Source of the DNA: a virus
IMG/VR virus record: IMGVR_UViG_3300028534_000004
Location: 1-64,000 of that record
Length of the DNA: 64,000 nucleotides
Strand: one strand, 5' to 3'
The position numbers and the translations under genes were made by a program. The notes under the pieces are model-generated. The model saw nothing but the letters and a program-made list of their open reading frames with translations. It had not been told where the DNA came from and did not search any database. Positions 11,071-51,500 of this stretch are shown in pieces; position 1 is the first letter of the stretch; the number at the start of each line of letters is the position of its first letter.

Positions 11071-11072
11071 AT

Positions 11073-11615: not shown

Positions 11616-11660
11616 AAAGATACCGAAATAAGGTACTATAATAAAGATATATGGGATATT

Positions 11661-11733: not shown

Positions 11734-11751
11734 CTTTATTCCGTAGGCATG

Positions 11752-11860: not shown

Positions 11861-11870
11861 AATAAAACTA

Positions 11871-11976: not shown

Positions 11977-11996
11977 TAATTTTAAAACTAAATTTT

Positions 11997-12418: not shown

Positions 12419-12446
12419 CAGAGAATAGTGGTTTTATTCATAGATT

Positions 12447-12468
12447 AAACCGGAAGAAATTCCGGTTT
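12447..12468 (+). terminator. intrinsic terminator-like hairpin
   Basis: AAACCGGAA-GAAA-TTCCGGTTT: a 9-bp stem with a GAAA loop, the U-tract forming part of the stem. Confidence 0.55.
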
Positions 12469-12500
12469 ATATATACATTAACTTTAAAAGAAAATTATTT

Positions 12501-12872: not shown

Positions 12873-12878
12873 CAGCGA

Positions 12879-12964
12879 GCTCAGGTGGTGAAATTGGCAG
12901 ACACGCAGGACTTAAAATCCTGTAGGTAGTAATACCTGTGAGGGTTCAAGTCCCTCTCTGAGCA
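12879..12964 (+). tRNA. tRNA-Leu(TAA): tRNA-Leu (anticodon TAA)
   Basis: Class II cloverleaf: GCTCAGG TG GTG-AAATTGGCAGA-CAC G CAGGA-CTTAAAA-TCCTG, variable arm TAGGTAGTAATACCTGT, T arm GAGGG-TTCAAGT-CCCTC, TCTGAGC A. Confidence 0.9.
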
Positions 12965-12987
12965 CTAATTTTTAAATAGAAATTATT

Positions 12988-34653: not shown

Positions 34654-34681
34654 AAGAGGGGAAGCGGCTTCCCCTTTTTTT
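34652..34681. terminator. bidirectional terminator at the convergence of rightward and leftward gene blocks
   Basis: AAAAGA-GGGGAAGC-G-GCTTCCCC-TTTTTTT. It sits between the stop at 34653 (+) and the stop at 34680 (-). Confidence 0.75.
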
Positions 34682-37600
34682 ATTTATTACCATTATGTAA
34701 TCTGCGATATTCACTTAGTAATCTTGCTCTGGCTTTTTTCTTTAGTTTTTCTTCTTCGGATAATCCTTCATCGGACTTTTTAGGTTTAGGTTTTTGGTTT
34801 TCTTTTTCAGCAAATACGTCGGGCCTCATTTCATCCATTAATTTTTCTATTTCTTTATCTTCTCTACGCTCATCGGCTTCCTTAAAAATTTTATCAAACC
34901 AGTCACCTTTAGACCAGTCTTCTTTCATGTAAGAACCAAATCCAAATCCGTGAACAAATCCCGGTACAAAAGTTTTATCTAAATGTTCAGCTAACTTATG
35001 GGATTGGTCAGCAGTGCCTATTCCTAAAGCTAACTTATTTAAATCTACTAATACTCTACCGACACTATCTAACCACTTTAAAACACTTGATTGAGTATAT
35101 GAATCCCAAAATTCTTTAGGATTTAAATACAACGATGCGTTACTTATTAATCCCATTACTTTATTTTCTGCCAGTAAATAAGCTTTCCATTTTAAACCCT
35201 TTTTATCATCATCGTCGTCACCTCTTAGAGAACTAATCATTATCTTGAACAATATTAGCATTAATAAAAAAGAAATCTCTTTTATATTAGCTTCCATATT
35301 ACGTCTATCAATATCACTTAATTTCAATTCTTCTAAATTGACTTTGCCTAGTTTAGTACCTATACCAAATAAATTTAAAGGCATCATTAATGTAGAACGT
35401 AATATATTTTGTGACATTACTATTAGCTCTTTTATTCCACTAATTTCAGATTTCACTCCGTTAGTAGAACTTATCATAGCTCCGGCTAAACCTCCTAATA
35501 CAGCTCCTACAGGTCCTGTAGCTAATCCTACGGCAGCACCCATCATAGCTCCTCCCATAGATGTAAAACTACGCCAACGACCTTTAACTCTACCTACTTT
35601 TAACATACCTTGGTCTTTAGCAAATCTAAGCCATACTTGAGAAGGTAACCATGTTTTGAAGAAGCTTAATACTTTACCTAACAAATATTGTTTAGCTAAG
35701 TTACCACCTAGTTCATCATAATCGCCGTGAGCAAATACAATTGCTTGTACGGTATTAGTTTTAAAATTTATATACTCCTTAGTTTTAATATTTTCCCAAG
35801 TATCAATATTATTAGCAGTACGATATTCCTGTTTTAATCTTAATTTACCATCTTTCATTTCAAAAGCGGTAAATTCTTTTCCGTCAAAAGCAGGTACCTT
35901 AGTAATACTACCATCCTCATTAATTTTCTCCACTTTCATATCCATCATTATCGCGAGTACTATATAACCCTGGTTAAGAAATTCTACATCAGTTATAGAC
36001 CAACGATAAGGACTTAATTTATTTAACTTCTTCAATGAGGATTCTACAGCACCTTTCTGTAATTCATCAGAAGCATCTTGTATTATTCGATAATTCTTCA
36101 TTATAGTTTCCAGGATAGTAAGTTGTTTACCATATTCGGAATTAGGAGACAATCTTTTAGCAAAACTCTTAGACAGAAACTTCTCTGCTAATACTCCGTT
36201 TCCCGGTGTCCAAAACATTCCTGTGGAATCCATAATCATATTAGAAATTTTACCTTCTATACGGTTAGTAATACCTGCATTTATATTATAAGCTAAAGAT
36301 TTAAAAATTAATCCGCTCATGATAAATTCTATGGTTGAAACTATCGAAAAATGTCCTCCTAAGTTTTCACGTTTTATGTACAAATTATTTAAAGTAACAG
36401 CGATTTTTTTAGCTCTTTCATCTTCTCCGATAAATTCATCCAGTTCTTTTTTACTTAAAGCTTTATCAAAGCTTCTTCCTCCTGTCATACTAAACAGATA
36501 TTCTTTGTATTTCTCAATTAATTCTTCCAATTCATCTCTTTGTTGTTTCTCGTCAGTAGTATAAATTTTACCTGTTCTGAGGAATTCCATAAAACTTTTG
36601 AAGTATTTGGTATTTTCGGGTATCCAAGAAAATCCTCTGAAAATACCTCCTCTTTGAATATTAGAATAACCTCTAACTGCTCTATCATAATTAGCATTCA
36701 TTCTTTTAATTGCTCTATCTCTGTATTTACCCTTTTTAGATATTTTACTTAGTGCTTTAGAAGTACCTGTTTCTTTTCCTTCTCTTTCGATTTCATTGTA
36801 TTTTTCTTTTAAAATACGAAGATAAGGTTCCGAAGTCTTTCTAGCCATATACTTAGCAGCATAAATTAATGATACACTCATTATTCGCGGTAAATCTTCC
36901 GAACTTTGTTCCAAGATAGCATGACCTGCGTAGTCGTTAATTACTTTATTCATATTAAGAACAATAGTACTAAAGAAATTTTCAAGAGAAGTTACATTTG
37001 GTTTTATACCAAATAAATCTGCTACAAATTTCATCTCTTCATCTGTCATACTATTAATTAGAACTTCGTTTTCTTCTCCGTGTATAAGTAACCATGTAGC
37101 TTTTTTATTTGCTACAATATCTTGGTACTCTTTAAATCGTTTATCGCGAAGTTGTTTATTAATACCTTTTATATCTTCAGAATATGTATTTTTAGTTTTA
37201 CCTGTACGAATAGCTTTCTTAAAACTATCTCTTCCTTTTTTAAGTAGTTTGACACTTTTACTATCTTTAGTCTCTGAACCTAAAACCAAAGCTTCGATAA
37301 ATGTTTTATCTATCATAGGTATAGAGTTCATAGGAAGATAAGTCTGACTATCAGTAAACGTTTCGTTAATAATTTCTAGAGCTTTATATAAAGCTCTCCA
37401 ATATTTGTACAATACTTCATCATCTCTTATCTCCTTAAAATTAGAATCATAATAGTTAGAAGGTACTTCACCAATCGGAGTTTTAATTTTTGTTCTTGGA
37501 ATAAGATAATTATAATTAGGAATAGAATAAAGAGTGTAAGTTTTATCTTTTGTTTTAACACTAATCATACCATTACCTTCATTAAAAGTCTCCGCAGCAA

Positions 37601-40600
37601 TAAAAGGATTTCTTGATATTATACTAGCGGATAAAGAATACTGTTCTTCAGGGCTTAAGTCCTTGACTTCTTCTACTTCATTTATTTTGAGTTTATTTTC
37701 AATTAATACTTCTCTGTAGTTATAAAAACTTTCTATTTGCTTTATACTTTCTTCAACAATATCGTTATACATGTCTTCCGTTAAAAGATTTTGTAAATCT
37801 TTCTTGTATTTCTGCATTTCTGCATCTTCAAATTTAAAGTATTTCTTGTCTCTCTCCGGAAGTTTATCTTCAAAGTATTCTTTAATTTCCGGTAATTTTC
37901 TAATATCAATCACATGAGTTTTATTCTTAACAGCAGTGTTATATGCAGCAATTTCTTTTTTATTAGTTAAATTACTAGATTTTAATTTAGATACATCTTT
38001 AAACCATTTATCCGAGAATATATGAACTAATCTATTTGTTTTTAATCCATGTTCGTTTCTTTGGAAGAATATATCAAAAGAAGTTATTTTCTTTTCTTTT
38101 TCAACTTTGGTTTTTAAACGCTTCTTTACATCATCTGTTAAAGAATTAAGTTCTTCTAAATAAGGATATATCAAAGCATTAGCTTCTTCTTCTGCTTTAC
38201 GTAATTCGTTAGTAATAATCTGAGGAATATAACTATCTGTTGAGAAGGTATTCATTGCTGCCCTATTCATGTAAGAATCCCATATACTAACATCTTCATA
38301 AGGTCTTACTAAATCTTCTATACTTATATTTTCGCCTAATATAGCAACTAAATCTTCATTATCACGAAGAAGAGTATTAATCTTTGTTTCAACAATTGTT
38401 TCATTAGCGTTCAATAGAGTTTCAAATCCTGTTTTTATACTCTTTAGTTCTTGTACTAATTTAGCTATAGCCTCGTTTGTCTTAACCGATTCTATAATAT
38501 CTTCAGGGTGCTTAAACAAAGGATTATCTTCATTTTTAATAAAGGTACCTGCTCTGGTGTAGAAACTAATGATATTAGCTATTTCTTCCCTATTACCAAT
38601 AGGGTCCTTCATAAGATAAGTAACTTGGTAATAATCACGTTTAGCTATCTCATGAAACAAAGCTAAATAAGTAGTATAACCTTCTGCTTTTAGAAATTTT
38701 TCATTTAAAGCGGTTAACTCTTCTTTTATTGTAACTAATCTTTCGATGTCTTTATATATTTCAGCTGCTTTATTTTTATCTTTTTCAAACCTTGCTCTAA
38801 TTTTCAAATCGCGAATTGTGTACTGTAAATCTTTGAGGTTATATTTTAGATATTCTTCAGCCTTTTTAGCAAATTCTTCTTTAAATTCTAATCCTGAAAT
38901 AGGTTCTCTGTATAATCTCTCGTTTTCTTCTAAATTAGCTAGTTCTTCTAGCTCTAAAAAGTCTTTTTGTGTAATTGGTCTATTTTCTTTTACATACTCT
39001 AAAACGTCCTTAAAATTCGTTTTTAGATATAATCCTTTTTGAGATTCATTATTTACCTTAGCAGCAAATTTTAGTTTAGAAGCCAAAGCATTTAATTGTT
39101 CATCGTTACCGAAAAATTCCAAATAAGTATAATTAGTATTTATTTTATACTCATCTTCAGAGATTCCTAACTCTTCTACAGCGTTTTTTATTTCTTTTTG
39201 TTTATACTCTATTGATAATAACTCTATTTTATCATCTACCGATTTTTGTAAATTAGGATTATAATCTTTATCTGAGTTTAAATAAGAGTACAACTCCTTA
39301 TATCCATAAGACTTTTTATCATCTTCGGTTTTTAAAGGTATAGAGTCCCCAATTGTAGAAGATTTAGGCTCATAATATATATTGTTTGAGTCGTTAAAGG
39401 TTCCTATTTCTTCTTCTTCTAAGTTAAACTTTTCCATTTGTTCTTCTGTAGGAGGAACAGCTGATTTAATATTTTTACTATCAAATACAGCTAAAATATC
39501 AGATGACTCTGTGTTATCTAAAGCCTTATCTTTTACATTCTTAAATAATACTGCGTCATATTTATCTTTAGACCTTACCAAATAACTTAAAAACTTTTTA
39601 GGGTCATATTCTTCTATATCTTCGACTATACGTAGTCTTTTAGCATTGATATAAACAGGTAAAGCATTTTCTCCATAATCTTCAGCTAAACTTTTATTGT
39701 CTGTAAAGAAGAAAGCTAATCTACTATCTTTACTAGCTGTATTAGTACCTTGTAAATCTTCTCTAAACTGAGCAAAATCTTTATTAGTTCCATGATAGAA
39801 CACTTTAGGTTTTCCTTCTTTATCTATTAACTGAGAAACATCATTTCGGAGATTATTTTTAAAAGTAACATTTACATAATCGTCTAATTTTTCTACTTTA
39901 TCTAAATTGCTTTCAATTTCTTTATTACTTTCAAAAGGTTTAACTCCTTCAGCAGTAGCTAAAGTTATATGAGGATGCTTATTGTTACTATATTTATTCT
40001 CTACTAATAATACATCTACTTTATCGGTTTTTAATCTTCCTATTATATGTAATTTCTCTTTTTTATTTTCGTTTTTATTAAATGGTTGTTTTCCAAATTT
40101 AATAGTAGAGTGATGATAAAATTTGTTAGGTAAATCCGAAGGATATTTTTCTTTTAGTTGTTCAGGATTATCTACATTCAAAGCTGTATAAATTGTAGGA
40201 TTCTCCCAATCTCCAAACCACTCCTTAAACTCTTTTGATTTAGTTACATCTTCGTTTTCTTCATAAGATTTAGGTTCGAAATAAATATTTTTACTGTTTT
40301 TGTCAAAAGTTCCTACTTTATCTTCTTCTAAATTAAGTTGTTTAATTTGTTCTTGTGTAGCAGGTAATGCGGATTTTATTTGATTAGAACTAAATACTAC
40401 ATGAGTTCCAAGCTCATGTTCTGGCCACATTACTTCTCCGTCTACATTTATGTATTTTGACAATTTTTCAACTATTTCGCCTGCTTTCTTTGGATTATTT
40501 TCTTGAAATACGTAATGGTTAAAAACCATATCTAATAATTGAAGAAAATCAGAACCAAAATATTCGTTATAATTAATAAAATCTTTATATATTTTTTCAG

Positions 40601-42548
40601 ATATTATTCCGTCTTCGTAAGCTTTTTTAGCAACTTTTAAAGCTTCTTTTTCTTTTTCTAATTTATCACGATTTTTATCATAAAGATTTCTTATATTTAG
40701 AAATACACTATAAACACCGGAGTTTCCTCCTTTTTTATATTCGCCATCAGTATATCTTGTTTTTGCTTTTGTTCTACTCTTTGTAAAATTAAAACCATAT
40801 ATTCTTTTTCTATCAGTAGCACCTGCGTTTATTCTTTCAAAAGTATTAAAACCATAAAAGCTTGTTCCATGATAAACTATCAAAGGTTCTCCGTTCTTAT
40901 CAACTACTTTACTAGCTTCTTTTGGATTATTTATCCAATCTCCAAACCAATTTCTAAATTCTTTACTATATACTCTAGCTTTAGCTTTAATAGCCTCTTC
41001 TTTTGAACCAGTTAATTCTAATAAATCCTTGAATAATTTACTTTCTTTACCATTAGGAGCTTTATCTAAAGAATGTCCGTTGTTTAATTTAATACTTTCC
41101 TTAATCTGGTCCTCAGACAAAGGCTCAAAAGTTGCTAGAATTTCTCCGTCTTTGGTGTTTATTGGAGTTTCTTTAGTATTATTCTTATATGAATCTTCGA
41201 ATATTTTTCTTATCTCCATTAAAATCTCTGGAAATAATTTACCCCATTTACCTTTATCTTGTTTATGTGTTAATATAGCATCTTTTGTGTTTAATAGTTT
41301 TTGTAATGCACCCGGATTTTGTTCAAAAGAGTCGTAAATTAATCTCTTCATTATACCTGGAGCATTTTTGTCCCATTTTTCTACATCTAAGCCTTTTACA
41401 GTTCTTCCGAGTTGTTTAGCTTCTTTACCATTTGTTTTTATAAAGGATTCTATTAATTTTTTTCCTTCTTCGTTTATTATTCCATTATCATCGTAGTAGT
41501 AATTCGAGTACATTATTTTAGCTGCTTGAAATGCTGATTCTACATTTAAGAATTTATACCCGGGAAATAACTCTGTTTCGAAGGACCTCGTTGCAAAATT
41601 TGACAATTCAGGATTTTCATTAGTACCATAATATATATTAATACTCTTTGAACTATTTTCCTTAGCTTTTTTAATAGTATCTTTTACAGCTTTTTCAGTT
41701 TTATTCACTTTTTGTTTATCTAAGTCATCTATAAATTCCCATTTATCCTTTTCAGAGAGGCCTATTATGCTTAGTTGTTTTGCTATAAATAATTTATCTA
41801 ACTTTTCTTTACCGGAAGTAATTTCACTGATAATAGCATTATAAGCTCTTTGAACTTTTAAAGCATTATATCGCGCTTGAGGATTTTTAATTTGAAAAGG
41901 TTTATTAGTGATATAAACTAGCTCGTTTCCGTATTCGTCAATTGCTGTTTCTTCTCCTACAGTTAATATTTTCTTGAATTTTTCAGCTAAATCTTTACGG
42001 ATAAAGAAACCAAACTCCACTTTATCGTCTAATTTCTTTATAGCTTTAAGTAATTCTCTTTCGTTTTTAGCTGCATATTCACTAATTTCAAATATGTTAT
42101 TGACTTTATCGTAAATCCCAAAGAAATAAGTATCGTCAACTTTGACAGAGTTGTACCCATTCAGATATTTAATCAATTCTTCCTTTTCTAAATTACGAGT
42201 ATCTTGATTTTTATTATAGAACTTAGTTCTTAGATAATTAACATATAACTCATTCTGTTCTTCATTATTCAAACTACTTACATCTACATTAGGCTTTACA
42301 TTTATAGATTTATCTTCATTAAGATATTCTTTAAATGCTTTGGAAAAAGTTACAGCTGTATATTTAATTGCCTTTTTTTCATCTTTTTCTATGCTTAAAA
42401 CCTTGTAGTACAAAGGATTAGGACTTCCTTCTTTAGTTAACCAGATAGGATTATTATTATTTTCAGCATAAATTTTCTTAGTAAGAATTGTACCAAGAAC
42501 TTTTTCCATTCTTTTATATTCGTCTGTTGTAGGATTTGGACATTTCAT
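34680..42548 (-). CDS. giant polyvalent virion/ejection protein candidate (NADAR + ART-like x2 + 2H-like + membrane segments)
   Basis: Uninterrupted ORF. The track start at 42557 is TTG; the first ATG at 42548 lies 2 nt after the upstream stop. Domain evidence is given in the sub-features. The long Lys/Glu-rich helical middle and Gly-zipper hydrophobic C-terminal part are typical of ejected internal proteins. Confidence 0.85.
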   Translation of the reverse strand: MKCPNPTTDEYKRMEKVLGTILTKKIYAENNNNPIWLTKEGSPNPLYYKVLSIEKDEKKAIKYTAVTFSKAFKEYLNEDKSINVKPNVDVSSLNNEEQNELYVNYLRTKFYNKNQDTRNLEKEELIKYLNGYNSVKVDDTYFFGIYDKVNNIFEISEYAAKNERELLKAIKKLDDKVEFGFFIRKDLAEKFKKILTVGEETAIDEYGNELVYITNKPFQIKNPQARYNALKVQRAYNAIISEITSGKEKLDKLFIAKQLSIIGLSEKDKWEFIDDLDKQKVNKTEKAVKDTIKKAKENSSKSINIYYGTNENPELSNFATRSFETELFPGYKFLNVESAFQAAKIMYSNYYYDDNGIINEEGKKLIESFIKTNGKEAKQLGRTVKGLDVEKWDKNAPGIMKRLIYDSFEQNPGALQKLLNTKDAILTHKQDKGKWGKLFPEILMEIRKIFEDSYKNNTKETPINTKDGEILATFEPLSEDQIKESIKLNNGHSLDKAPNGKESKLFKDLLELTGSKEEAIKAKARVYSKEFRNWFGDWINNPKEASKVVDKNGEPLIVYHGTSFYGFNTFERINAGATDRKRIYGFNFTKSRTKAKTRYTDGEYKKGGNSGVYSVFLNIRNLYDKNRDKLEKEKEALKVAKKAYEDGIISEKIYKDFINYNEYFGSDFLQLLDMVFNHYVFQENNPKKAGEIVEKLSKYINVDGEVMWPEHELGTHVVFSSNQIKSALPATQEQIKQLNLEEDKVGTFDKNSKNIYFEPKSYEENEDVTKSKEFKEWFGDWENPTIYTALNVDNPEQLKEKYPSDLPNKFYHHSTIKFGKQPFNKNENKKEKLHIIGRLKTDKVDVLLVENKYSNNKHPHITLATAEGVKPFESNKEIESNLDKVEKLDDYVNVTFKNNLRNDVSQLIDKEGKPKVFYHGTNKDFAQFREDLQGTNTASKDSRLAFFFTDNKSLAEDYGENALPVYINAKRLRIVEDIEEYDPKKFLSYLVRSKDKYDAVLFKNVKDKALDNTESSDILAVFDSKNIKSAVPPTEEQMEKFNLEEEEIGTFNDSNNIYYEPKSSTIGDSIPLKTEDDKKSYGYKELYSYLNSDKDYNPNLQKSVDDKIELLSIEYKQKEIKNAVEELGISEDEYKINTNYTYLEFFGNDEQLNALASKLKFAAKVNNESQKGLYLKTNFKDVLEYVKENRPITQKDFLELEELANLEENERLYREPISGLEFKEEFAKKAEEYLKYNLKDLQYTIRDLKIRARFEKDKNKAAEIYKDIERLVTIKEELTALNEKFLKAEGYTTYLALFHEIAKRDYYQVTYLMKDPIGNREEIANIISFYTRAGTFIKNEDNPLFKHPEDIIESVKTNEAIAKLVQELKSIKTGFETLLNANETIVETKINTLLRDNEDLVAILGENISIEDLVRPYEDVSIWDSYMNRAAMNTFSTDSYIPQIITNELRKAEEEANALIYPYLEELNSLTDDVKKRLKTKVEKEKKITSFDIFFQRNEHGLKTNRLVHIFSDKWFKDVSKLKSSNLTNKKEIAAYNTAVKNKTHVIDIRKLPEIKEYFEDKLPERDKKYFKFEDAEMQKYKKDLQNLLTEDMYNDIVEESIKQIESFYNYREVLIENKLKINEVEEVKDLSPEEQYSLSASIISRNPFIAAETFNEGNGMISVKTKDKTYTLYSIPNYNYLIPRTKIKTPIGEVPSNYYDSNFKEIRDDEVLYKYWRALYKALEIINETFTDSQTYLPMNSIPMIDKTFIEALVLGSETKDSKSVKLLKKGRDSFKKAIRTGKTKNTYSEDIKGINKQLRDKRFKEYQDIVANKKATWLLIHGEENEVLINSMTDEEMKFVADLFGIKPNVTSLENFFSTIVLNMNKVINDYAGHAILEQSSEDLPRIMSVSLIYAAKYMARKTSEPYLRILKEKYNEIEREGKETGTSKALSKISKKGKYRDRAIKRMNANYDRAVRGYSNIQRGGIFRGFSWIPENTKYFKSFMEFLRTGKIYTTDEKQQRDELEELIEKYKEYLFSMTGGRSFDKALSKKELDEFIGEDERAKKIAVTLNNLYIKRENLGGHFSIVSTIEFIMSGLIFKSLAYNINAGITNRIEGKISNMIMDSTGMFWTPGNGVLAEKFLSKSFAKRLSPNSEYGKQLTILETIMKNYRIIQDASDELQKGAVESSLKKLNKLSPYRWSITDVEFLNQGYIVLAIMMDMKVEKINEDGSITKVPAFDGKEFTAFEMKDGKLRLKQEYRTANNIDTWENIKTKEYINFKTNTVQAIVFAHGDYDELGGNLAKQYLLGKVLSFFKTWLPSQVWLRFAKDQGMLKVGRVKGRWRSFTSMGGAMMGAAVGLATGPVGAVLGGLAGAMISSTNGVKSEISGIKELIVMSQNILRSTLMMPLNLFGIGTKLGKVNLEELKLSDIDRRNMEANIKEISFLLMLILFKIMISSLRGDDDDDKKGLKWKAYLLAENKVMGLISNASLYLNPKEFWDSYTQSSVLKWLDSVGRVLVDLNKLALGIGTADQSHKLAEHLDKTFVPGFVHGFGFGSYMKEDWSKGDWFDKIFKEADERREDKEIEKLMDEMRPDVFAEKENQKPKPKKSDEGLSEEEKLKKKARARLLSEYRRLHNGNK
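35236..35580 (-). other. hydrophobic / glycine-zipper segments near the C-terminus of the 2,6xx-aa protein
   Basis: SMGGAMMGAAVGLATGPVGAVLGGLAGAMISS and ISFLLMLILFKIMISSL, followed by a DDDDD tract. Confidence 0.6.
39459..39842 (-). other. ART-like module 2, aa 906-1033
   Basis: IDKEGKPKVFYHGTNKDFAQF … LAFFFTDNKSLAEDYG … LPVYINAKRL … ILAVFDSKNIKSA. Same pattern as module 1 in a more compact form. Confidence 0.5.
39843..40202 (-). other. 2H-phosphoesterase-like module, aa about 786-905
   Basis: Two H-x-[TS] motifs: YHHSTIKF (aa 815-818) and KHPHITLAT (H863-I-T865, 39963-39971). It is preceded by a second SKEFKEWFGDW leader. The spacing between the motifs (about 47 aa) is shorter than in LigT or Acb1. 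Confidence 0.35.
40368..40967 (-). other. ART-like module 1 (polyvalent-protein ADP-ribosyltransferase type), aa 531-730
   Basis: SKEFRNWFGDW…KVVDKNGEPLIVYHGTSFYGFNTFE … YGFNFTKSR … VYSVFLNIRNL … HVVFSSNQIKSA. This follows the leader-VYHGT-…-IKSA pattern of ART domains in phage polyvalent proteins. Confidence 0.55.
41199..41642 (-). other. NADAR (YbiA/DUF1768-type) domain, aa 306-453 of the track ORF
   Basis: ELSNFA … NVESAFQAAK … GKEAKQLGR … VEKWD … IMKRLIYDSFEQNPGALQKLLNTKDAILTH … DKGKWG. These follow the order and spacing of the NADAR signature (FSNF, E..fQa.K, ak.lGr, W, KF.qn..l...LL.T, D..WG). Confidence 0.7.
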
Positions 42549-42550: not shown

Positions 42551-45500
42551 TTAACAATTTAAATCGTTTAGTTCATCTATATTAAAATACTCGTCAAAGT
42601 TAAAATTATTTTCGATTATATCCGAAAGAGGTTCGCGATGTTTATCAGTTAATTTCTTATATAAACTGTTTGCTTTTGTAGCATAAGCCATATCGCCCAT
42701 AATTTTTTTATTTGTTTCGATATAACTAGGATTAATAGTTTCATAGGCATGGATTACATCTATAATTTGCTCAATAGCAGTAAATTTATTTGTTAGGTCT
42801 ATATTTTCTTTAATAGCAACTTCAACATTATTGTATTCTTTACCATTATAAACGAACCCTTTTTCCGGTGATACTTTATCTTTCTTTATAGGCTCTACTT
42901 CAGCTTCGGGTTTATTAATAACTTTTAACTTCATCATATCTTTAATGAAGTCTGTTTTAGGGAATAAACCCTTAATCATTGCATCTTTTGCAGCTTCAGC
43001 AGAATCGTATAAATTAGATTTAATTAGACGTCCTGATTCATAATGAATAGCTCTATAATGACCTGTTTTATCTTTAAAGATTAAGAAATGAGCGTCTAGT
43101 GTAGGATGCTTAATTATTTCACCTTCTATAGTCTCTATTGTATTTAAGTTTCTAATAAGTTTCGCGGTTACTTTTTTGTTTGAAACATTATTAGATATAG
43201 CTGTTTTAGGAGTAGGATTCTCTATAGGACTATTCTCCTCGAAGATATAATCCTGTCTATAAGAAGGTAATGTATTATCTATAAATACTAAAGCTCTTTT
43301 GGCACTTTCTCTTAATAAGGTACCTTCTTTAAATATTCCTAAACTTTCTAACAAATCCATTATTATATCTTTAAACTTAGACAATAGATTTTGTTTTTCA
43401 TTATAAGGTATACTGGCTAATTTCTCTTGAAACAGAGGACGCGTGAATATACCGGTAATAAACTCTTCAATAGTTGCTAAATGGTAGTATGCCTTTTCTT
43501 TTTGATTGAAAGTTATTCCTTCTTCTTTATTAGATAGTCTCTTGTACTTTTCTTTCATAGATTTATAAGCAGGGTCATCTTTAAAAGCTTCAACAGCTTT
43601 GTTATATACTTCGTATAAATCTTTAGCATACTTAGGAGCTCCTTGTTTTATTTGAGTTTTACCTATTTCTTCATCATAATAGAAATAATCGCTTAAGTAC
43701 TCTACACTTACAGCATGAAGGTACTCATGTAAAAATACTCTAGCTTGGTCTTTATCATCCAGACTAAGAAAAGTATCTGTAAGAGCTATTTTTCCTTCTG
43801 AGTAAACTGCAACAAAATCATTGGATTTTACTTTATAAACAGGAATATCGAGTTTAATTCTATCGGTTAAAGCTTCTAGAATATCGCTTATTCTATATTC
43901 TTGAATGTTTTTACGAATATAATGAAGAGCTACTTCATCTGCTGTTTTACCATTTTTCTTTGAAGTAGGCTCAGATTTAGGAGGTTCTACTTTTTCTTTA
44001 TTTTCTTCTTGTAAATAATCCTTTATTTTCTTCATTACTTCTCTATCAGCGTCATATTGTTTGATAGCCCAATGAGATAATACAGGTATTTCTTTTCCTT
44101 TGTAGAATAATCTGAATTTGGAATCTGTTTTAGAATCGTACATTGAAGCATAAGGAATATTGGAACCTTCCCATAATTGTTTAGCTTCAGAAGCGTCTTT
44201 AACTCTTGTAGCTTTTTCCGGATTATTCTGAAAGAATTGAGTTACAAATGGTATTCCTTCTGTTTCTCTTTCACTATTGAACAATACGTCGTTTAATTGA
44301 TTACTAAAATTAAGATTTGACAGATTAACACTAGTCATTTTAAACCAACTAAGAGGTATATATTTGACAATTTCTACGGCTCCTTGTACAGCATTATTCA
44401 ATAAAGAATAAGTTATTAAATCATTTGCCAAATCTCTAGTAGTATAAAAAGGTTCTATTTTATATTCGTAAACTGTTTCAAATCCGGTATCCTTTAAAGT
44501 AGGATACTTTTTAGTTAGAGTATTTTTATTATGTTTTGCTACAAAACGTGCTTTGTATTTTTTTCTTCCATAACTAAATTTTACAATTTTTTCGTTACCA
44601 AAAGCATCTATAGGATTTTTAGATAGTATAGTAGTTTTACCTTCTATTAACTCTTTTTCAAATTCTTCTGAAGAAATCTCTTTATAAGAAGAATTATTGT
44701 AGTTATAAGAAGGTAATTCTAAATTAGCTTCGATTAACTCATCTAAAGCTGTATATAGAACATCTTCATATAGTAAGCTATTGTTAGCGTTAATAAATTT
44801 AATTAAACTAGGTGTTCCGTCTCTGTTAATATCAAAAGTTAATCTTGACAAAAGTGGGTTATCAAAAATTTGATGTTTTTGAATTTTTAATTCGTAAAGG
44901 TACCTGGCTAAAGACATATTAGTATCTGTATCAATATCTAATTTAGCTCTTTGAACAGCTACATCTCCTTTGGTTAATCCTATTTTGGAAGAAGAATATA
45001 TGAACCGTTTCAGTTCTTTTAGAATATCTTTTTTTAATTGTTTCCCTTGAGCACTAGTACTAGTATCCGTATAACTACTTATTTCTTCATATAACATGTT
45101 AAATTCTTGTTGATACTGTATAAAGAACTCGCTAAACAACGACTCATTCAATCCTAAAGATTTTCCTATCATATAAGCTACAGGATTAGCAACACGCGAA
45201 TAATGTTCTAATCCAAAAGCTTCCAGATTAACATCTTCGAATTTTGTAAAGTTAGTGAATAAGTTATCAAATCCTTTGCCTGATACATTATCTAGAGTGT
45301 TACTTAAATCGATTATATCTTCCATAGAACCTTTAAACTTATTATTTATACCAAATAACTTAGTCAAAGGCCTAACTTCTTCATCAGCTATCCCTTTTAA
45401 GAAATTAAAAGCTCTCAATATTCTAGCTTGAAATAATCTGTCTTTAGATGTTCCTATATTGTCATATAAATCTTTTACTGAAAAAGTAAAAGCATTAGAA

Positions 45501-48500
45501 TTATCATTTAAAGCTTGATATTCTTCAGGTGAAAGATTTAAGTTCTTCATAGCATTAGAATAAGCTATTGCATGTTTATCGCCGTATTCAGTATTAGTAT
45601 TAGAATCAAGGTTCATCATCTCTTCTACATACTTCTTAATTATAGGCTGTGACAAAAAGAAATAAGGAATAGAAATGATTTCATTTCCTACTAAGGCTTG
45701 GTCATAACCCAATAGCGCCATTAAAGAATCTACAGAGATAGTGTATTTATTTACATTAACACGACCTAATATTTGAACCTTCATATCATCGGTACCGGTA
45801 TTAACTCTTTCATCTAATACCTCAGCAATAGTCCTATTACCATCTAAAGTTCTTTGATTACCTATTTTACCATTAGATACTATTCTTACTCTACCTCCTT
45901 CAAAGTCTTCACCTAGAAATACAATAGGTTTTTCTTTTAACTCCTTAATAGTTATCTTGTTAGCCTGCTGTGTTAAAGACAAGAAAGTTACTGCTTGAGC
46001 GTATACTCCAATAGCCATTTTACCAGAGCTACCTCTCTGCATAGTGTCCCTTTGATAATCTATATCCGCGAAGCCTAAATAAGTTTTAGAGCTGTCTTTA
46101 TTTAACTTCTCTAATAAACTTGCTTGTTCTTTAGCAAATTCAATTGATAGTACTTTATTTATTTTATCCTGTACCTCGTTATCGGGAGAAGATAATACCG
46201 AATGATGTACTTTGATTATTTCATTATCTATAGTTTTACTATATAAATCTTTTGCTTCTTCTAGTTTCTCCTCTATTTCTTTTACTTTATCTTTTTCTTT
46301 TTTCTTTTTGTATTTAACTCTTTGTTTTTCTAAACTTTTAATTTTATCTTCTAATTTCTCTAAATTCTCTCCTTTACCTACTTTTTTAATTCTCCCTTCT
46401 TCATCTAACTCGTGCCAATAGAAATAAGCAAATTCTTTATCTACGTCAAAGTCTAATCCTTTCTGAGGCAATATTGTATTAGGAACAACTATTATATCTC
46501 CCTGTATCTCAGGTATAAAACCTGCTATCTCTACATCAGACATAGATACGTGTGATGAAGTAGGAATACGGAAAGTTATCATACTAAGAAGTTCATCGTC
46601 TATCATTCCTTCTATTAGAACTTTTCTACCGTTTTCATACTCCCAATATTTACCTTTATTTTTTTCACCAAAAATATCTACTAAATTACCTTCTTTATCT
46701 TTAAACCTTGAAGGTACAAATACTTGAACCTTCTTAAGTTTATTTCCTTCTTTATGAGTTACCTGTAATCCTTTTTCTTTGTCATAATATTTAGTGTAGA
46801 TAATATCATCGCGATAATTTTCTTCATTAGTTAAACTCCAACCTTCGGCTGTACTAGCTACATAAGAATAACCCGGCATCTTTAATTTTATAATGGCATT
46901 ACGTATTAAAGAAATAGCAACACTTTCTAATTTTTCTGCCTGAGGTAATAACCATAAAGGAACGTCGAATATAGGTTTACCATTTACAATTTTAATTTTT
47001 AATTGTTCAAGGTCTTTGGTATACATTCCTCTACTTTCTGCTTCTTCGATAAGCAAAGATTTTAACTTATAAGCTAATTGTTTATGGTCAGATAAATTCT
47101 TTAGTCCTAATTTGTCTAATAACAACTTCTCATTTAAATCAATGCGTTTAGCAAATAAAGTGTTGTAATATATAGCAAGAGCTTCGCCGGTAACTTTATT
47201 ACCGTTATATTCAAATTCTTTGTTAATCATATCGTTACCAAACAATTCTTTCATCATTTGGGTACCGAGAGTAACCATATTAGGTTTATGTTTACCTGCT
47301 TTATAAGGTATTTCTTGTTGTATCTTGAAGTATTCTCTATTAAGCTCTATACTATGATTAGCTAAATGAGTACTAGTTAGATTTTTAATTCTTCCGTCAG
47401 GAGTAAATATCTTGAGAGCTTTCTTTAAAGCTCCTACTTTATTAGCTGTCTGGAAAGAAGCTCTAACAGTTCTGTGACTACCTTTTTCTATTTCGCTTTC
47501 TTCAAGTTCTTCCATTGCTCTACGTAACTTATCTATCTCTTTACCCGCTGTTACTTGAGGTATCAGTGGTATAGAAGAAGATTTGATATAAATCACATGA
47601 TTAGTATCGTTGTCTTCGTCTAACATAGAACCACCGTATACCGGTTTAAGAGGTTGTAATACTACGTCTAAATCATCTTTAGTTAACAAATATTCATCCG
47701 GTATAGGCTTATTTTGTTTTTCAAATTGTCTTTGTTTCTTTATTTTTCCTTTTATATCCGTGTACTGTTTCTCTGTCAACTTACCATATCTATACAATAC
47801 ATTAATATGTTCTGATAAAGTAGTGAACTCTTGAGCATCAGTACTTTCTATTTCTAAGAAATCACTAATAACATTATACCTTTTTAAATTCTTTAGTATT
47901 TTATCCTTTTGAGATTTAAGCTCTGTAATTTCTTCTTCTGATAATACTTCAGTATTTAACTCTACATTAGATAAATGAGTATCTATAATTTTTAGATTTT
48001 CTATTTCTTTAGCAGCTTTTCTTGCCTCCTTAACTCCATAGTGTAATTCTATTAAGTACTCCAAGTTAGCAGCATTGGTTTCTGCATCTTGTAGCATTAT
48101 CTGTAAGTATTTTTCTTTGTTGGACTCATACGCTTTTAAACCGGGAGCAATTAACATTGCCATACGCTTAGAAGCATTTACATTAATATTATTAAACAAA
48201 TCATCGTATATATCAGGGTTTTTAACTCTATATGGTATAGGTTCATTATTCTTATCTACTTCAAAGTTTTTTGAATCAACATCTTTATCTTTACCATAAT
48301 AAGCCAAATCTCCGGCAAATATTTGATTAATGTTTGTTAAACCCACAAATGTATTAATTACGTAATCGGCAGTAGCTACATAAGCCAATTCTCTTTCGTC
48401 ATTTATATCTAACTCCTTAAGAAAATTCTGGTCCATATAATTAATCTTAAATTCTCCGTCTTCATTTATATTGAAGAAACCATTTTGAACAAATTCAGAG

Positions 48501-51500
48501 AATTTATCATTTATCTTATTTACAAATAGTCTTTCTATTTCTGCTAGAATATCACTAATATGGTTCCTTTCGAAATCTTCTATATTATCATATTGTAACA
48601 TTAACTCTTGGAAACTTTGTCCTCCTTTACGAAACTTATTTAGTCCCGGTAAAATAGTAAATAGTTTAGAAAAGGTATCATAGCCTTTAATTCCTGTTTC
48701 TACTTCAGATTTTATATTCTTATGGATACGTTTAATTTCAGGTCTTACTGTTTGATAATAGAGTGCTGTTAACAGAGATTTGTTTATTTTATCGATGTTA
48801 CCTTCTCTGAATTCAAAATGATTATATGTAATTTTAAAACCTACATTATCTAATATTAACTGCTGAGTTTTATCAGAGAAAGTAGGAAACATGGTTCTTA
48901 TATGTCTTAGTTCTACTCCATGATATATTCCTGTCATAGTTCTGGCACTTTTTAAATCTTGTAAAAGTACCATTGCTATTAAGTCATAATCAGTAGGAGA
49001 TTGGTCCGTAATTTTATTACTACCTCTGGTTTTCTTCCCTAGTTCTTTCAAAGCATCTAATGCGATATGAGATAATGCAAATCCTTCTTTAAATTTATCA
49101 TCTTCTTGAAGTTTTCTTAAAATTAGATTTTCAGATGTTAAACTAAGGTTTAACAGCTTTTGTCTATAATCTTCATCGTTCTTAATCTTATAAGCCATAT
49201 CGCTAGTATAATTAGGTAAATTGATAAGGTAAATATTCTTTTTACCGTCATTAATACTAGTAGAGCTAACCTGATTAGAATACTTAGATTCTATAGCTGC
49301 TAGCTTTAATCCATAAGTACTCATAATTGCACTTAATAGAGGTAAACTCTCAGCAGATTTACCCTTTTTATAACTCTCTATATTATCTTCTAAATTGTAC
49401 AACAAAGAAATAATTTTTCCTAAAGGTGAAATATTTCCATTGGGATTTAATAAACCTTTTAGTTTAATGAACTTCACTTTATTATTATAGAAAATTTTTA
49501 AGCCTTTGTCATTAAGTTCTTCTAATGTATCCGTAGATAAATGTACTCCTATATTTTCGAAAGCAGCTTTAACTTTCTGAATACTAATTTCTCCCTTTAC
49601 ATTGGTTTGCCCTGTATAAGTAATATTACCTTTATCGTCCTTAGTTATAACTATTCTAAATTTCTTAGTAGAATTACGTAAAGTAACAGAAGCTTTAGAA
49701 CCGGGTTTTAGTTTATCAATTATATCTTTAAATGGTTTTAATTTATCTCCGTATAATTTACCTCCTTTTCCGCGAGCCATAATCAACATCTCTTTGTACA
49801 GAGAAACATCTACTTCTACATTACCGTAGTCCTCAGGAGGTAACATATCCTCGAATTGTTTAATAGCTTCTTTAAGTTTATCTTCGTTAATGTAGAATTT
49901 ACCTTCTGTGTATCTAAATAAATCAGATAATAAAAAGCTCTGGTCCCAGTCATTTAAAATACGACGCTTGACACTATTACTATTAGTATCAAATAACATT
50001 AAGTTGTAGGTATTTCTTTTAAAATCTTTACCAAACATAGGACTCTTCATATTAATAAAATGTTTGGCAAAGTTTACTACGAATTGAATCTTAGTCTGTT
50101 CATCAGTGTTGTCTAATCTTTTTACCAATTCTTCCACCCAAGGATGGGCTGCTTTTGCAGAAAGTAATCTGGCTTTCATTTCTTCATAAGTAGGAGCTAC
50201 ATCGCCATAAGCTAAAATAATCTCAGCTACTTTATCATATATATAATCGAAGTCATGGAATAAAGGAAGTTCAAAAGCTCCTTTTACCTGCTGACCTGTT
50301 TTATCCAATTGTTTTAGACCTGAAAAGAAACGGCGTAACTTATAAGGTAAACGTTCTTTACCGTTTTCTTCTAATACACTCTTGCCTAGTTCTTTAGTTC
50401 TACCTTCAATATCTTCTTGGTCTAAAGAATCCTCATCATTTCTACGTTCATCATCTGTTAAATCTTCAGATATTTCAAGAATTGTAGCATTTTCATCAAT
50501 TTTCTTCTCTACGATACCTGTACGTAATTTAACTTCTTTATAAGCTAACTTAGCTATCTTATTTTTGTTTTTAATAATAGTCTCAAGTTTAGCTAGTTCT
50601 TGTTGTTTAACTTTAACAAGGGTTAATATTTTCTCTTTTTGAGTTGTAGTTAAATTATCCTTATGTCTTTTAAGTACGGAAATAGAATTATTAATCGTAT
50701 TATTTATCGACTCTATAGACGGTTCTAATAGTTTTTCAAAATCATCAGTTAATTTAGACATTATATCTTTCTTAGATATATATTGTCCTTTGTCAAATTC
50801 TCTTAAGAATGAGTTATACATATAAGTAACTACAGTATGTAACTCTATAGTTGTTAAGCCTTCTATCTCGTTGTAACTTTGTCTAATCTTCTCAAATTCA
50901 TCTTCATCAATAAATCTAGGTTCTCTGAAGGAAATTTCATTTTTGTTATCTTCTATTTCATTCAAAATATTTTCTAAGTCTTCGTCTATATCATCGGATA
51001 ATTTTACTTCTGTTACACTAGTTTCTATAGAATTAGCTTGTTCTAAAATATTTAGTAGCTCTTCGTCATCTTCTACAGGAGTAGTATCATTAGTGGTATC
51101 GGTATTAGCACTAATATCTTTTAGTTCATCCTTAGCTTTTTTATTTTCGTACTCCGTATTAATTTCTTCTTCTGACTTTACTTCTTCCTTTTTCTTTAAT
51201 TTAGAAGTTAAATTAGAAGTTTTATCTTTTATCTTTTTACCTAAAGGTATTTTATCAAAACGTTTATCGAGATTATCTTGGTCAGTGCTATTAAATTCAA
51301 TTCGCGGTTGAGTTCTGGTTATATACTTAGGACTATTCTTAGTACCAATATTAAACGATTTAATATTAGTAAAGAAGTTGTTCTTTAGTATATCTTGTAA
51401 CGTGTATTTATCATTTACACTATAACCTCCGGTAGCATCAATAAATGAAAACTTCTTATTACTATATTCTTGTAATGCTCTTGCATTAGTAGTAACACGT

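What the first reader, a model, noticed from the sequence alone, without database searches (positions are those of the whole stretch)
34680..42548. A 2,6xx-aa polyvalent virion protein combining NADAR, two ART-like modules, a 2H-like module and membrane-inserting segments
Motifs recognised in order along the protein:
- A NADAR/YbiA-type domain (aa 306-453).
- An ART-like module introduced by SKEFRNWFGDW…VYHGT (aa 531-730).
- A second SKEFKEWFGDW leader followed by a module with two H-x-T/S motifs (aa 786-905).
- A second ART-like module (aa 906-1033).
- About 1,300 aa of helical Lys/Glu-rich sequence.
- Gly-zipper/hydrophobic segments near the C-terminus.
This matches the polyvalent-protein logic described for phages and conjugative elements, in which several anti-host effector domains are fused to a delivered structural protein. 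NADAR domains remove ADP-ribose from guanine bases, reversing DarT1-type toxins, so this module would be an injected counter-defence. Its pairing with ART-like writer modules in one polypeptide is notable. The gene's position next to the 4,491-aa ORF in the late block supports packaging and ejection.
Basis: partly seen in the sequence, partly recalled or inferred. Interest (0 to 1): 0.85.

Follow-up and report, generated by a model that had tools for sequence, protein, structure and literature searches.

The report
Crass-like phage cargo protein carrying ADP-ribose enzymes
This 2,622-residue gene of a crAss-like phage is a conserved, probably virion-packaged and injected protein that has gained four enzyme modules at its front end (one NADAR eraser of ADP-ribose, two ADP-ribosyltransferases, one small 2H phosphodiesterase), a new member of the known "polyvalent protein" class.

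Summary
Window 34680-42548 (- strand) is one 2,622-aa ORF that starts 2 nt after the stop of a 4,491-aa gene carrying the virion RNA-polymerase motif DFDVD.

Domain calls:
- Pfam scores above its curated cut-offs for NADAR (50.5 bits) and two ART-PolyVal domains (65 and 66 bits).
- The "2H-like" module (aa 797-905) belongs to a family of over 200 clusters with invariant H-x-T motifs. Its model (pLDDT 92.5) matches CNPase first.
- The C-terminal ~1,370 aa are not filler. They are the conserved third giant cargo protein of crAss-like phages (FpV4 gp33; weaker links to crAss001 gp49 and phi14:2 gp076, both found in virions by mass spectrometry). They contain a glycine zipper and a hydrophobic helix followed by an acidic run.

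None of 11 related viral loci carries these enzymes, so the ~1,050-aa cassette is a lineage-specific graft. In other crAss-like phages NADAR and ART sit on the polymerase giant instead.

The NADAR has the His variant of T4 AdfN, a proven anti-DarTG1 factor.

Most likely this is an ejected carrier of counter-defence and host-takeover enzymes. All activities and packaging are inferred, not shown. It is a new member of a known kind, of moderate interest.

The parts
34680..42548 (-). Whole gene, 2,622 aa plus stop codon. It is the last gene of the cargo ('transcription') block and converges on the + strand replication block.
42306..42539 (-). aa 4-81: first copy of the ~70-aa 'PRE' connector, the element that precedes ART domains in homologues.
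   Evidence: jackhmmer hit within the protein; sequences shown
41664..42305 (-). aa 82-295: orphan region with no detectable relatives and no confident fold.
   Evidence: pLDDT 47 for aa 1-300
41169..41663 (-). aa 296-460: NADAR domain (Pfam core aa 307-436). Residues E337, K344 and the diagnostic H428.
   Evidence: Pfam 50.5 bits. Family profile against E. coli YbiA 2B3W, E 5.5e-14, and NADAR 8BAU, E 1.4e-11, with H428 aligned to the catalytic Glu. hhalign to T4 gp30.3/AdfN, E 5.9e-5.
40914..41168 (-). aa 461-545: second PRE connector, ending in the leader SKEFRNWFGDW (aa 528-538).
40359..40913 (-). aa 546-730: ART-PolyVal module 1 with H560, N587 (in place of the usual aromatic) and D703. 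It has a ~70-aa helical insert before the last strands.
   Evidence: Pfam 65.4 bits; column counts
40161..40337 (-). aa 738-796: third, shortened PRE connector with the leader SKEFKEWFGDW (aa 771-781).
39834..40160 (-). aa 797-905: minimal 2H phosphoesterase of the CNPase / Trl1-CPD type (H813-x-T815, H860-x-T862). It is inserted between the ART leader and strand 1 of ART2.
39450..39833 (-). aa 906-1033: ART-PolyVal module 2 with H919, F947 and D998.
   Evidence: Pfam 66.3 bits; invariant H and D in alignment A4; column counts
38784..39449 (-). aa 1034-1255: bridge between the enzyme cassette and the scaffold. It has no assigned family and is partly covered by the scaffold profile (from aa 1074).
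34683..38783 (-). aa 1256-2622: conserved scaffold of the third giant cargo protein (phrog_14721 / FpV4 gp33 family).
   Evidence: phrog_14721 E 4e-37. FpV4 gp33 E 3e-56, P0004 and P0005 E ~1e-63. hhalign to crAss001 gp49 E 7e-6. Weak collinear match to phi14:2 gp076. 11 syntenic viral loci.
35472..35552 (-). aa 2333-2359: glycine-zipper hydrophobic segment.
35205..35291 (-). aa 2420-2448: hydrophobic helix followed at once by an acidic run (DDDDD). FpV4 gp33, P0004, P0005 and phi14:2 gp076 share this signature.
42551..56026 (-). Context: upstream 4,491-aa giant with the vRNAP catalytic motif DFDVD (aa 3192) and an HEYLH motif (aa 4100). Homologue of FpV4 gp32 and crAss001 gp50.

Best explanation
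**What it is.** The gene encodes the third giant cargo protein of a crAss-like, FpV4-like podovirus. This is the protein encoded right after the virion RNA polymerase. Its conserved C-terminal ~1,370 aa, with a glycine zipper and a hydrophobic helix followed by an acidic run, are the ancestral part. That part is packaged in the capsid and ejected into the cell with or ahead of the DNA.

**What was added.** In this lineage a ~1,050-aa polyvalent cassette has been grafted onto the N-terminus. It is built from units that each begin with a ~70-aa connector: connector - orphan region - NADAR; connector - ART-PolyVal 1; connector - mini-2H - ART-PolyVal 2.

**How it probably works.** Because the enzymes arrive pre-made, they can act before any phage gene is expressed.
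- The His-type NADAR removes ADP-ribose from guanine bases, a DarT1-type attack on incoming DNA, as T4 AdfN does.
- The CNPase-like 2H opens 2',3'-cyclic phosphates on RNA ends or small nucleotides.
- At least ART2 ADP-ribosylates host targets, as T4 Alt does.

**Shown here.** Domain identities, conservation of catalytic residues, synteny, and homology of the scaffold.

**Inferred.** Packaging (from orthologues and gene position), every enzymatic activity, every target, and any membrane role of the C-terminus.
For: - **Domains.** NADAR and two ART-PolyVal domains score above Pfam cut-offs.
- **2H.** The family has over 200 clusters with invariant H-x-T motifs. Pfam points consistently to tRNA_lig_CPD. 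The model has pLDDT 92.5 and matches CNPase in the PDB and a Marseillevirus Trl1-like 'RNA ligase' in BFVD.
- **NADAR residues.** E337, K344 and H428 align with the catalytic positions of YbiA, 8BAU and T4 AdfN. The AdfN function comes from PMC11825919.
- **Block identity.** Crass muzzle protein, a giant with DFDVD, and the same gene order in FpV4.
- **Scaffold homology.** FpV4 gp33 and crAss001 gp49. The TM-plus-acidic signature is shared with phi14:2 gp076, which is annotated as a structural protein by MS/MS.
- **Virion evidence in relatives.** crAss001 gp47, gp49 and gp50 were found in virions (PMC10172136). The two genes flanking the phi14:2 polymerase gene also encode virion proteins (preprint 10.1101/2020.03.07.982082).
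- **Synteny.** In all 11 full related loci the scaffold ORF follows a giant ORF.
- **Class.** ART-PolyVal and 2H domains in virion-linked polyvalent proteins are described in PMC5512222.
Against: - There is no experimental datum for this phage, which is known only from metagenome assemblies.
- FpV4 gp33 is annotated only as a hypothetical protein, whereas gp29 and gp32 are labelled 'virion structural'.
- The links to crAss001 gp49 (probability 84%) and phi14:2 gp076 (E 0.005-0.014) are weak.
- ART1 has Asn at the aromatic position of the H-Y-D triad (1 of 60 sequences), and ART2 has Phe.
- The NADAR is only 26% identical to AdfN over the hhalign-aligned columns and is not the DarT1-linked Asp subtype. 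Its best PADLOC match is an uncharacterised candidate, PDC-M42C, not DarG.
- The 2H module itself scores 1 bit below the Pfam cut-off.
Confidence: 0.65

Rival explanations
1. RNA-repair machine. The 2H opens 2',3'-cyclic phosphate ends left by host anticodon nucleases. An ART removes or handles the resulting 2'-phosphate with NAD+ (Tpt1/KptA-like). NADAR clears the ADP-ribose by-product. The phage Rnl2-like ligase then seals the tRNA.
For: - The 2H is of the Trl1-CPD/CNPase clade, and its best viral structural match is a Trl1-like 'RNA ligase'.
- An Rnl2-like RNA ligase gene lies at 32297-33196.
- The window holds three or four tRNA genes.
- The ART-2H-NADAR link to RNA repair is proposed in PMC9503650.
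Against: - The ARTs are ART-PolyVal (H-Y-D type), and Pfam gives no Tpt1/KptA hit.
- NADARs were inactive on phosphate-linked ADP-ribosyl RNA ends (PMC11833690).
- The 2H versions found in polyvalent proteins were never seen associated with RNA ligases (PMC5512222).
- The ligase sits in the oppositely oriented replication block and is not fused.
- No polynucleotide kinase was seen in the window.
Confidence: 0.13
2. Built-in writer-eraser (toxin-antidote) pair. The ARTs ADP-ribosylate nucleic-acid bases to shut the host down. The NADAR in the same polypeptide keeps the phage genome, or the producing cell late in infection, free of that modification.
For: - ART-NADAR toxin-antitoxin pairs exist: DarT1-NADAR, and YarT-YbiA, where YarT is an HYD-clade ART (PMC11543638, PMC11125620).
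- ART-PolyVal and NADAR co-occur in 5 giant proteins retrieved here (P0001, P0007, P0008, P0017, P0027).
Against: - Most NADAR-bearing giants lack ART and most ART-bearing ones lack NADAR.
- The ART modules hit no DarT model in PADLOC.
- The clade was predicted to modify proteins.
- The protein set was gathered with this very query, so the co-occurrence is biased.
Confidence: 0.12
3. The enzyme modules are decayed passengers. The protein acts only as a structural or ejection component, and the domains no longer catalyse anything.
For: - ART1 has N587 at a position that is aromatic in 57 of 60 relatives.
- The N-terminal 300 aa have no relatives and no confident fold.
Against: - The catalytic His and Asp of both ARTs are kept.
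- Both H-x-T motifs of the 2H are kept.
- The Glu, Lys and His of the NADAR are kept.
- The modules are 42-70% identical to copies in other phages, which implies purifying selection.
Confidence: 0.06
4. The protein is not packaged. It is made and acts inside the infected cell late in infection.
For: FpV4 gp33 is not labelled as a virion protein. There are no proteomic data for this phage.
Against: - The gene is 2 nt from the vRNAP gene, in the same orientation.
- The gene in the same position in phi14:2 (gp076) encodes an MS/MS-confirmed virion protein, as is crAss001 gp49; homology to gp076 is only weak and to gp49 moderate.
- Synteny is conserved in 11 loci.
Confidence: 0.04

Closest known systems
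Polyvalent proteins of phages and conjugative elements (Iyer, Burroughs, Anand, de Souza, Aravind 2017, PMC5512222), e.g. the ART-PolyVal-N4-like vRNAP fusion of Roseovarius Plymouth podovirus 1
   Same: A giant multi-domain protein of a phage, linked to virion genes, with ART-PolyVal as the commonest enzyme and 2H domains also present. It is predicted to be delivered with the DNA.
   Different: That paper does not mention NADAR (0 occurrences) or crAss-like phages. Here the carrier is the crass third cargo protein, not MuF, portal or an N4-type polymerase. Here the 2H sits inside the N-terminal part of an ART unit.
T4 Alt (packaged ART) and T4 AdfN/gp30.3 (NADAR, anti-DarTG1; PMC11825919)
   Same: A pre-made ART injected with the DNA, and a His-type NADAR. 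E337, K344 and H428 align with AdfN. In T4 the two genes lie about 3 kb apart.
   Different: - T4 uses separate small proteins. AdfN is not reported as packaged (no occurrence of 'virion' or 'packaged' in that paper).
- Alt belongs to the R-S-E clade, not H-Y-D.
- Identity to AdfN is only 26% over the aligned columns, with 65% hhalign probability.
Third giant protein of the crass 'transcription/cargo block': FpV4 gp33, phi14:2 gp076 (g067 in Drobysheva et al.), crAss001 gp49
   Same: Position right after the vRNAP gene. Sequence homology of the C-terminal ~1,300 aa. A hydrophobic helix plus acidic run near the C-terminus.
   Different: Those proteins are 1,349-1,596 aa and carry no recognised enzyme domain. 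None of the 11 related viral loci has ART, NADAR or 2H. This ORF has about 1,050 extra N-terminal residues.
NADAR fused to vRNAP-type giants of gut crassviruses, e.g. cr126_1 gp003 (YP_010111697.1, 2,402 aa, 'DUF1768 domain-containing protein')
   Same: The same His-type NADAR clade (43% identity), embedded in a giant cargo-block protein of a crassvirus.
   Different: There NADAR rides on the polymerase-type giant and usually has no ART or 2H. Here it rides on the next protein, together with two ARTs and a 2H.
CNPase and the fungal tRNA ligase (Trl1) CPD domain of the 2H phosphoesterase superfamily
   Same: Two H-x-T motifs, the same fold core (TM about 0.55-0.58 over the query), and flanking residues similar to the CNPase sequence as I recall it (HHSTIKF, HITLATAEGVKP).
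   Different: It is half the size (109 aa against about 210). It scores below or at the Pfam cut-off. It is not Acb1-like (BFVD rank 32, TM 0.23).
DarTG1 antitoxin NADAR (BC4488 subfamily)
   Same: NADAR fold, with the catalytic Glu and Lys.
   Different: The diagnostic residue is His, not Asp. There is no adjacent DarT. There is no DarG hit in PADLOC.

Membership tests
Polyvalent protein (PMC5512222) | Two or more distinct effector domains in one large polypeptide of a phage or conjugative element | tested here: met
   NADAR, two ART-PolyVal domains and a 2H in a 2,622-aa phage protein
Polyvalent protein (PMC5512222) | Genomic link to virion or packaging genes, implying delivery with the DNA | tested here: met
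   Last gene of the muzzle-cargo-vRNAP block. Delivery itself was not tested.
ART-PolyVal (PF18760) | Score above Pfam's gathering cut-off (31.2 bits) | tested here: met
   65.4 and 66.3 bits
ART-PolyVal (PF18760) | H-Y-D active-site triad (His in strand 1, Tyr in strand 2, Asp in strand 5) | tested here: inconclusive
   His and Asp are present in both modules (H560/D703, H919/D998). The Tyr position is N587 in ART1 and F947 in ART2. Across 60 relatives this position reads Y 23, F 19, W 9, H 6.
NADAR (PF08719) | Score above the gathering cut-off (35.1 bits) and homology to solved NADARs | tested here: met
   50.5 bits. Family profile against 2B3W E 5.5e-14 and 8BAU E 1.4e-11.
Phage His-type NADAR (AdfN/gp30.3-like) | His in place of the last-strand Glu or Asp, with the catalytic Glu and Lys kept | tested here: met
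   H428 aligns with E125 of 8BAU and with the His of T4 gp30.3. E337 and K344 are invariant. Pfam Phage_30_3 itself reaches only 14.6 bits against a cut-off of 36, so this is a separate His-type clade.
Phage His-type NADAR (AdfN/gp30.3-like) | Removes ADP-ribose from guanine and protects the phage from DarTG1 | not testable with these tools
   Needs enzyme and infection assays.
DarTG1 antitoxin NADAR (BC4488) | Asp at the diagnostic position and an adjacent DarT1 gene | tested here: not met
   His, not Asp. No DarT or DarG hit in PADLOC.
2H phosphoesterase superfamily | Two H-x-T/S motifs conserved across the family | tested here: met
   H813/T815 and H860/I861/T862 are invariant or nearly so in 35 aligned members of a family with 205 clusters.
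2H phosphoesterase superfamily | 2H fold | tested here: met
   Model pLDDT 92.5. The top 47 PDB matches are all CNPase, probability 1.0, TM(query) 0.50-0.66, E about 1e-2. E-values are modest and the domain is half-size.
tRNA_lig_CPD (PF08302) | Score above the gathering cut-off (23 bits) | tested here: inconclusive
   22.0 bits for this module. It is the best hit in 10 of 10 standalone relatives, and 3 score above the cut-off.
Acb1 (anti-CBASS 2H nuclease) | Structural similarity to Acb1 | tested here: not met
   Acb1 ranks 32 in BFVD, TM 0.23, probability 0.11.
Tpt1/KptA RNA 2'-phosphotransferase | Profile match to the KptA family | tested here: not met
   No such Pfam hit for either ART region, even at E up to 5.
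Crass third cargo-block protein (FpV4 gp33 / crAss001 gp49 / phi14:2 gp076) | Gene directly downstream of the vRNAP giant, on the same strand | tested here: met
Crass third cargo-block protein (FpV4 gp33 / crAss001 gp49 / phi14:2 gp076) | Sequence homology of the scaffold | tested here: met
   FpV4 gp33 E 3e-56; phrog_14721 E 4e-37; crAss001 gp49 by hhalign E 7e-6, probability 84%. phi14:2 gp076 is only weak (E 0.005-0.014) but collinear.
Crass third cargo-block protein (FpV4 gp33 / crAss001 gp49 / phi14:2 gp076) | Presence in virions | not testable with these tools
   Known for phi14:2 gp076 and crAss001 gp49, not for this phage.

The most novel reading that the evidence does not exclude
The giant 'transcription-block' proteins of crAss-like phages may be general, swappable delivery vehicles for anti-host enzymes. 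This one would carry a complete nucleic-acid ADP-ribosylation system in a single injected polypeptide. H-Y-D ARTs would write ADP-ribose on host DNA or RNA. A His-type NADAR would keep the incoming phage genome clean, or reverse DarT1-type host attack. A 2H embedded in the ART would clear cyclic-phosphate products or signals. That would be a phage-weaponised version of the DarT-NADAR logic.
Probability: 0.15. Interest if true: 0.75.

Novelty: new member of a known kind. Interest (0 to 1): 0.5.

Why it matters
- **Gap in crassvirus biology.** Crassviruses are the most abundant phages of the human gut, and almost nothing is known about how they defeat host immunity. Their giant cargo proteins have been read only as polymerase subunits or channel formers.
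- **What this protein shows.** Together with the NADAR- and ART-bearing polymerase giants found alongside it, it shows that these ejected proteins also carry ADP-ribose writers, erasers and a cyclic phosphodiesterase that move between carriers. That implies ADP-ribosylation-based defences (DarT-like) and cyclic-phosphate chemistry matter in Bacteroidota-phage conflicts.
- **What it offers experimentally.** It gives small, expressible domains to test. The ~105-aa minimal 2H family (over 200 clusters, no dedicated Pfam model) is a compact new enzyme scaffold worth characterising.

Tried and rejected
- **N-terminal 300 aa.** The word-indexed homologue search found nothing. Pfam gave only noise. 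A single-sequence AF2 model was unusable (pLDDT 47), so no fold search was run on it.
- **PDB by sequence.** Whole-protein and single-domain phmmer searches gave only chance hits (FABP, axin). Family profiles were needed.
- **ART profile against PDB.** Only sub-threshold hits to tankyrase, PARP12 and exotoxin A (E about 1.2). This is compatible with the H-Y-E/D clade but proves nothing.
- **Scaffold profile against PDB.** No hit. crAss001 gp49 against PDB also gave no hit.
- **Scaffold against crAss001 gp47.** No relation.
- **PADLOC.** No DarT or DarG match, so I dropped the idea that the ARTs are DarT-like by sequence.
- **Acb1-like anti-CBASS reading of the 2H.** Rejected on fold ranking.
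- **C-terminal 573 aa homologue search.** It returned a single fragment. The viral-contig scan was more useful.
- **Local phmmer against phi14:2 and crAss001 proteins.** It printed no hits, so I relied on BLASTP and hhalign instead.
- **Sample SRR8439170.** It is not mentioned in the paper library, so the habitat and host remain unknown.
- **Drobysheva et al.** The Nature version could not be read. I used the bioRxiv version.

Full report
**1. The observation.**

The window has a single uninterrupted ORF at 34680..42548 on the - strand, 2,622 aa from the ATG. A TTG nine bases upstream would give 2,625 aa. The ATG lies 2 nt after the stop codon of a 4,491-aa ORF on the same strand.

G+C is a uniform 0.28-0.31 across the gene. 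In DNA this A+T-rich, a 7.9-kb open frame cannot arise by chance.

The identical protein is on record from three assemblies, including an 86-kb contig from run SRR8439170.

**2. The domains.**

- NADAR covers aa 307-436, at 50.5 bits when scanned as a sub-region (cut-off 35.1).
- ART-PolyVal hits twice: aa 550-728 at 65.4 bits and aa 909-1031 at 66.3 bits (cut-off 31.2).

*NADAR residues.* I built a profile from 13 related NADAR segments.
- It finds E. coli YbiA (2B3W, E 5.5e-14) and the NADAR 8BAU (E 1.4e-11).
- E337 and K344 are invariant.
- H428 aligns with the catalytic Glu of 8BAU, and by hhalign (E 5.9e-5) with the His of T4 gp30.3.
- The literature separates NADARs by this residue: Glu in YbiA, Asp in DarT1-linked antitoxins, His in phage NADARs (PMC11543638, PMC11125620).
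- T4 gp30.3 (AdfN) is an experimentally shown anti-DarTG1 factor (PMC11825919).

*ART active sites.* ART-PolyVal is defined by an H-Y-D active site (PMC5512222).
- Both modules keep the His and the Asp: H560/D703 and H919/D998, invariant in alignment A4.
- The aromatic position is F947 in ART2. Phe occurs there in 19 of 60 relatives.
- The same position is N587 in ART1, which is unique among the 60.
- ART1 may therefore be impaired.

*The 2H module.* The '2H-like' module (aa 797-905) was the least certain call, and it holds.
- An exhaustive search found 205 clusters with E <= 1e-3, in giant proteins and in standalone proteins of 120-250 aa.
- H813/T815 and H860/T862 are invariant or nearly so.
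- Ten standalone relatives all have tRNA_lig_CPD as their best Pfam hit, three above the cut-off. The module itself scores 22.0 against 23.
- An AF2 model built with the family alignment has pLDDT 92.5.
- Its top 47 PDB matches are all CNPase catalytic domain (probability 1.0, TM about 0.55).
- Its best viral match is a Marseillevirus Trl1-like 'RNA ligase'. Acb1 ranks 32 with TM 0.23.
- I conclude it is a half-size 2H of the CNPase / Trl1-CPD clade.
- It sits between the ART leader SKEFKEWFGDW (aa 771-781) and strand 1 of ART2 (FYHGT, aa 917-921). The same unit occurs in P0002 (64% identity over aa 770-928) and a few others, but most family members are independent of ART.

**3. The rest of the protein.**

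*Scaffold.* The 'Lys/Glu-rich helical' 1,300 aa are not compositionally special. They are a conserved family.
- phrog_14721 covers aa 1256-2557 (E 4e-37).
- BLASTP gives FpV4 gp33 (E 3e-56) and two 2,130-aa metagenomic proteins (E about 1e-63).
- The family profile matches crAss001 gp49 by hhalign (E 7e-6, probability 84%).
- It matches phi14:2 gp076 weakly but collinearly.

*Hydrophobic features.*
- A hydrophobic helix directly followed by four to seven acidic residues, 110-215 aa from the C-terminus, is shared by this ORF, FpV4 gp33, P0004, P0005 and phi14:2 gp076.
- The glycine zipper (aa 2333-2359) and the helix (aa 2420-2443) are real.

*Connector.* A ~70-aa element ('PRE') ending in F..WFGDW precedes ART domains in most homologues. 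It occurs three times here: aa 4-81, 461-545 and 738-781.

*Orphan region.* Residues 82-295 have no relatives and no confident fold.

**4. Context.**

*The - strand block.*
- It reads: crass muzzle protein (Pfam crAss_MUZ, E 1.7e-25), a 578-aa protein, an 846-aa protein, the 4,491-aa giant, then this ORF.
- The giant has DFDVD at aa 3192, the catalytic motif of crass virion RNA polymerases. It is homologous to FpV4 gp32 and crAss001 gp50.

*Relatives.*
- FpV4 has the same order, gp29-gp33.
- In phi14:2 the whole block is annotated as structural by MS/MS. The preprint of Drobysheva et al. states that the two genes flanking the polymerase gene encode virion proteins.
- In crAss001, gp47, gp49 and gp50 were detected in virions and are assigned to the capsid cargo zone (PMC10172136).

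*The + strand.* This block converges on the gene and is a replication module with DNA polymerase, helicases, an exonuclease and an Rnl2-like RNA ligase.

**5. How unusual is it?**

- A scan of viral contigs found 12 loci with scaffold homologues. In all 11 full loci the scaffold ORF (1,541-2,308 aa) directly follows a giant ORF.
- None of those scaffold ORFs has ART, NADAR or 2H. The enzyme cassette is therefore a lineage-specific graft, and this is the longest family member seen.
- The modules themselves are common on other crass giants.
  - NADAR sits on DFDxD-bearing polymerase giants in about 17 retrieved proteins, either N-terminal or C-terminal to the polymerase.
  - Four giants carry both ART and NADAR.
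  - Several ~2,000-2,400-aa proteins begin with PRE-ART.
  - In RefSeq, cr126_1 gp003 (2,402 aa) is already named 'DUF1768 domain-containing protein'.
- No paper in the searchable library holds both a crass term and NADAR, DUF1768 or YbiA among those listed.
- The 2022 survey of viral NAD+/ADP-ribose systems says phage NADARs are 'typically standalone'.

**6. Mechanism.**

*Best reading (0.65).* This is a packaged, ejected cargo protein whose N-terminal cassette delivers pre-made enzymes.
- NADAR would strip ADP-ribose from guanine, acting against DarT1-type defence.
- The 2H would open 2',3'-cyclic phosphates.
- At least ART2 would ADP-ribosylate host targets, as T4 Alt does.
- The C-terminal hydrophobic elements may anchor the protein in, or pass it through, the membrane during ejection.
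- Shown: domain identity, residue conservation, synteny and homology.
- Inferred: packaging, activities, targets and membrane role.

*Rivals.*
- **RNA-repair pathway (0.13).** It is favoured by the Trl1-type 2H, the nearby ligase and the tRNAs. It is disfavoured because the ARTs are not KptA-like, NADARs do not act on phosphate-linked ADP-ribose, and polyvalent 2H domains do not associate with ligases.
- **Writer-eraser toxin-antidote pair (0.12).** It is supported only by analogy (DarT1-NADAR, YarT-YbiA) and by biased co-occurrence.
- **Decayed modules (0.06) and a non-packaged protein (0.04).** Both are unlikely, given the conserved catalytic residues and the synteny.

**7. Verdict.**

The protein is a new member of the known class of polyvalent virion proteins, with three modest new points:
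- the carrier is the crass third cargo protein;
- a His-type NADAR is embedded with two ARTs;
- a minimal 2H is inserted in an ART unit.

Interest is moderate (0.5). The logic is already known, but the setting (crass-like phages) and the small, testable domains make it a useful lead.

Noticed in passing
window 2230-4740: About 2.5 kb with no ORF over 100 aa and G+C 0.39 against about 0.30 elsewhere. It lies at the switch between - strand genes (70-2226) and the + strand replication block. No Rfam family matched. It could be an origin, a regulatory region or an undescribed RNA.
   Followed up: partly
window 10905-12965: Three tRNA genes: Ile-GAT, Met-CAT and Leu-TAA. There is also a 138-nt tRNA-like Rfam match at 11073-11210 (36.7 bits) that ARAGORN did not call. 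It may be an intron-containing or degenerate tRNA.
   Followed up: no
window 32297-33196 (+): A 299-aa Rnl2-like RNA ligase (Pfam RNA_ligase with a weak T4_Rnl2_C hit; phrog_548 E 1e-45), about 1.5 kb from the 3' end of the studied gene on the opposite strand.
   Followed up: partly
window 42551-56026 (-): The 4,491-aa giant has the polymerase motif DFDVD at aa 3192 and an HEYLH (zincin-like) motif at aa 4100. It looks like a fusion of the protease-type and polymerase-type block proteins that are separate in phi14:2. Pfam recognises nothing in it.
   Followed up: partly
window 42306-42539, 40914-41168, 40161-40337 (-): A ~70-aa connector ending in F..WFGDW is repeated three times in the ORF. 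It precedes ART domains in most of the 47 retrieved giant proteins and is not covered by the Pfam ART-PolyVal model. It may be a module boundary used in domain shuffling or processing.
   Followed up: partly
proteins P0056-P0196: The ~105-aa minimal 2H domain forms a large family (205 clusters at 50% identity). It includes many standalone 120-150-aa proteins and has no dedicated Pfam model. Only marginal tRNA_lig_CPD hits are seen.
   Followed up: partly
L018 (T4) 5455-10766: In T4 the packaged ART gene alt and the NADAR gene 30.3 (adfN) lie within about 3 kb of each other on the same strand. This is a loose genomic counterpart of the fusion seen here.
   Followed up: no
L006, L016, L017 scaffold ORFs: Some scaffold-family orthologues have N-terminal extensions of 380-616 aa that match none of ART, NADAR, 2H or PRE. 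Other, unidentified cargo modules may ride on the same carrier.
   Followed up: no
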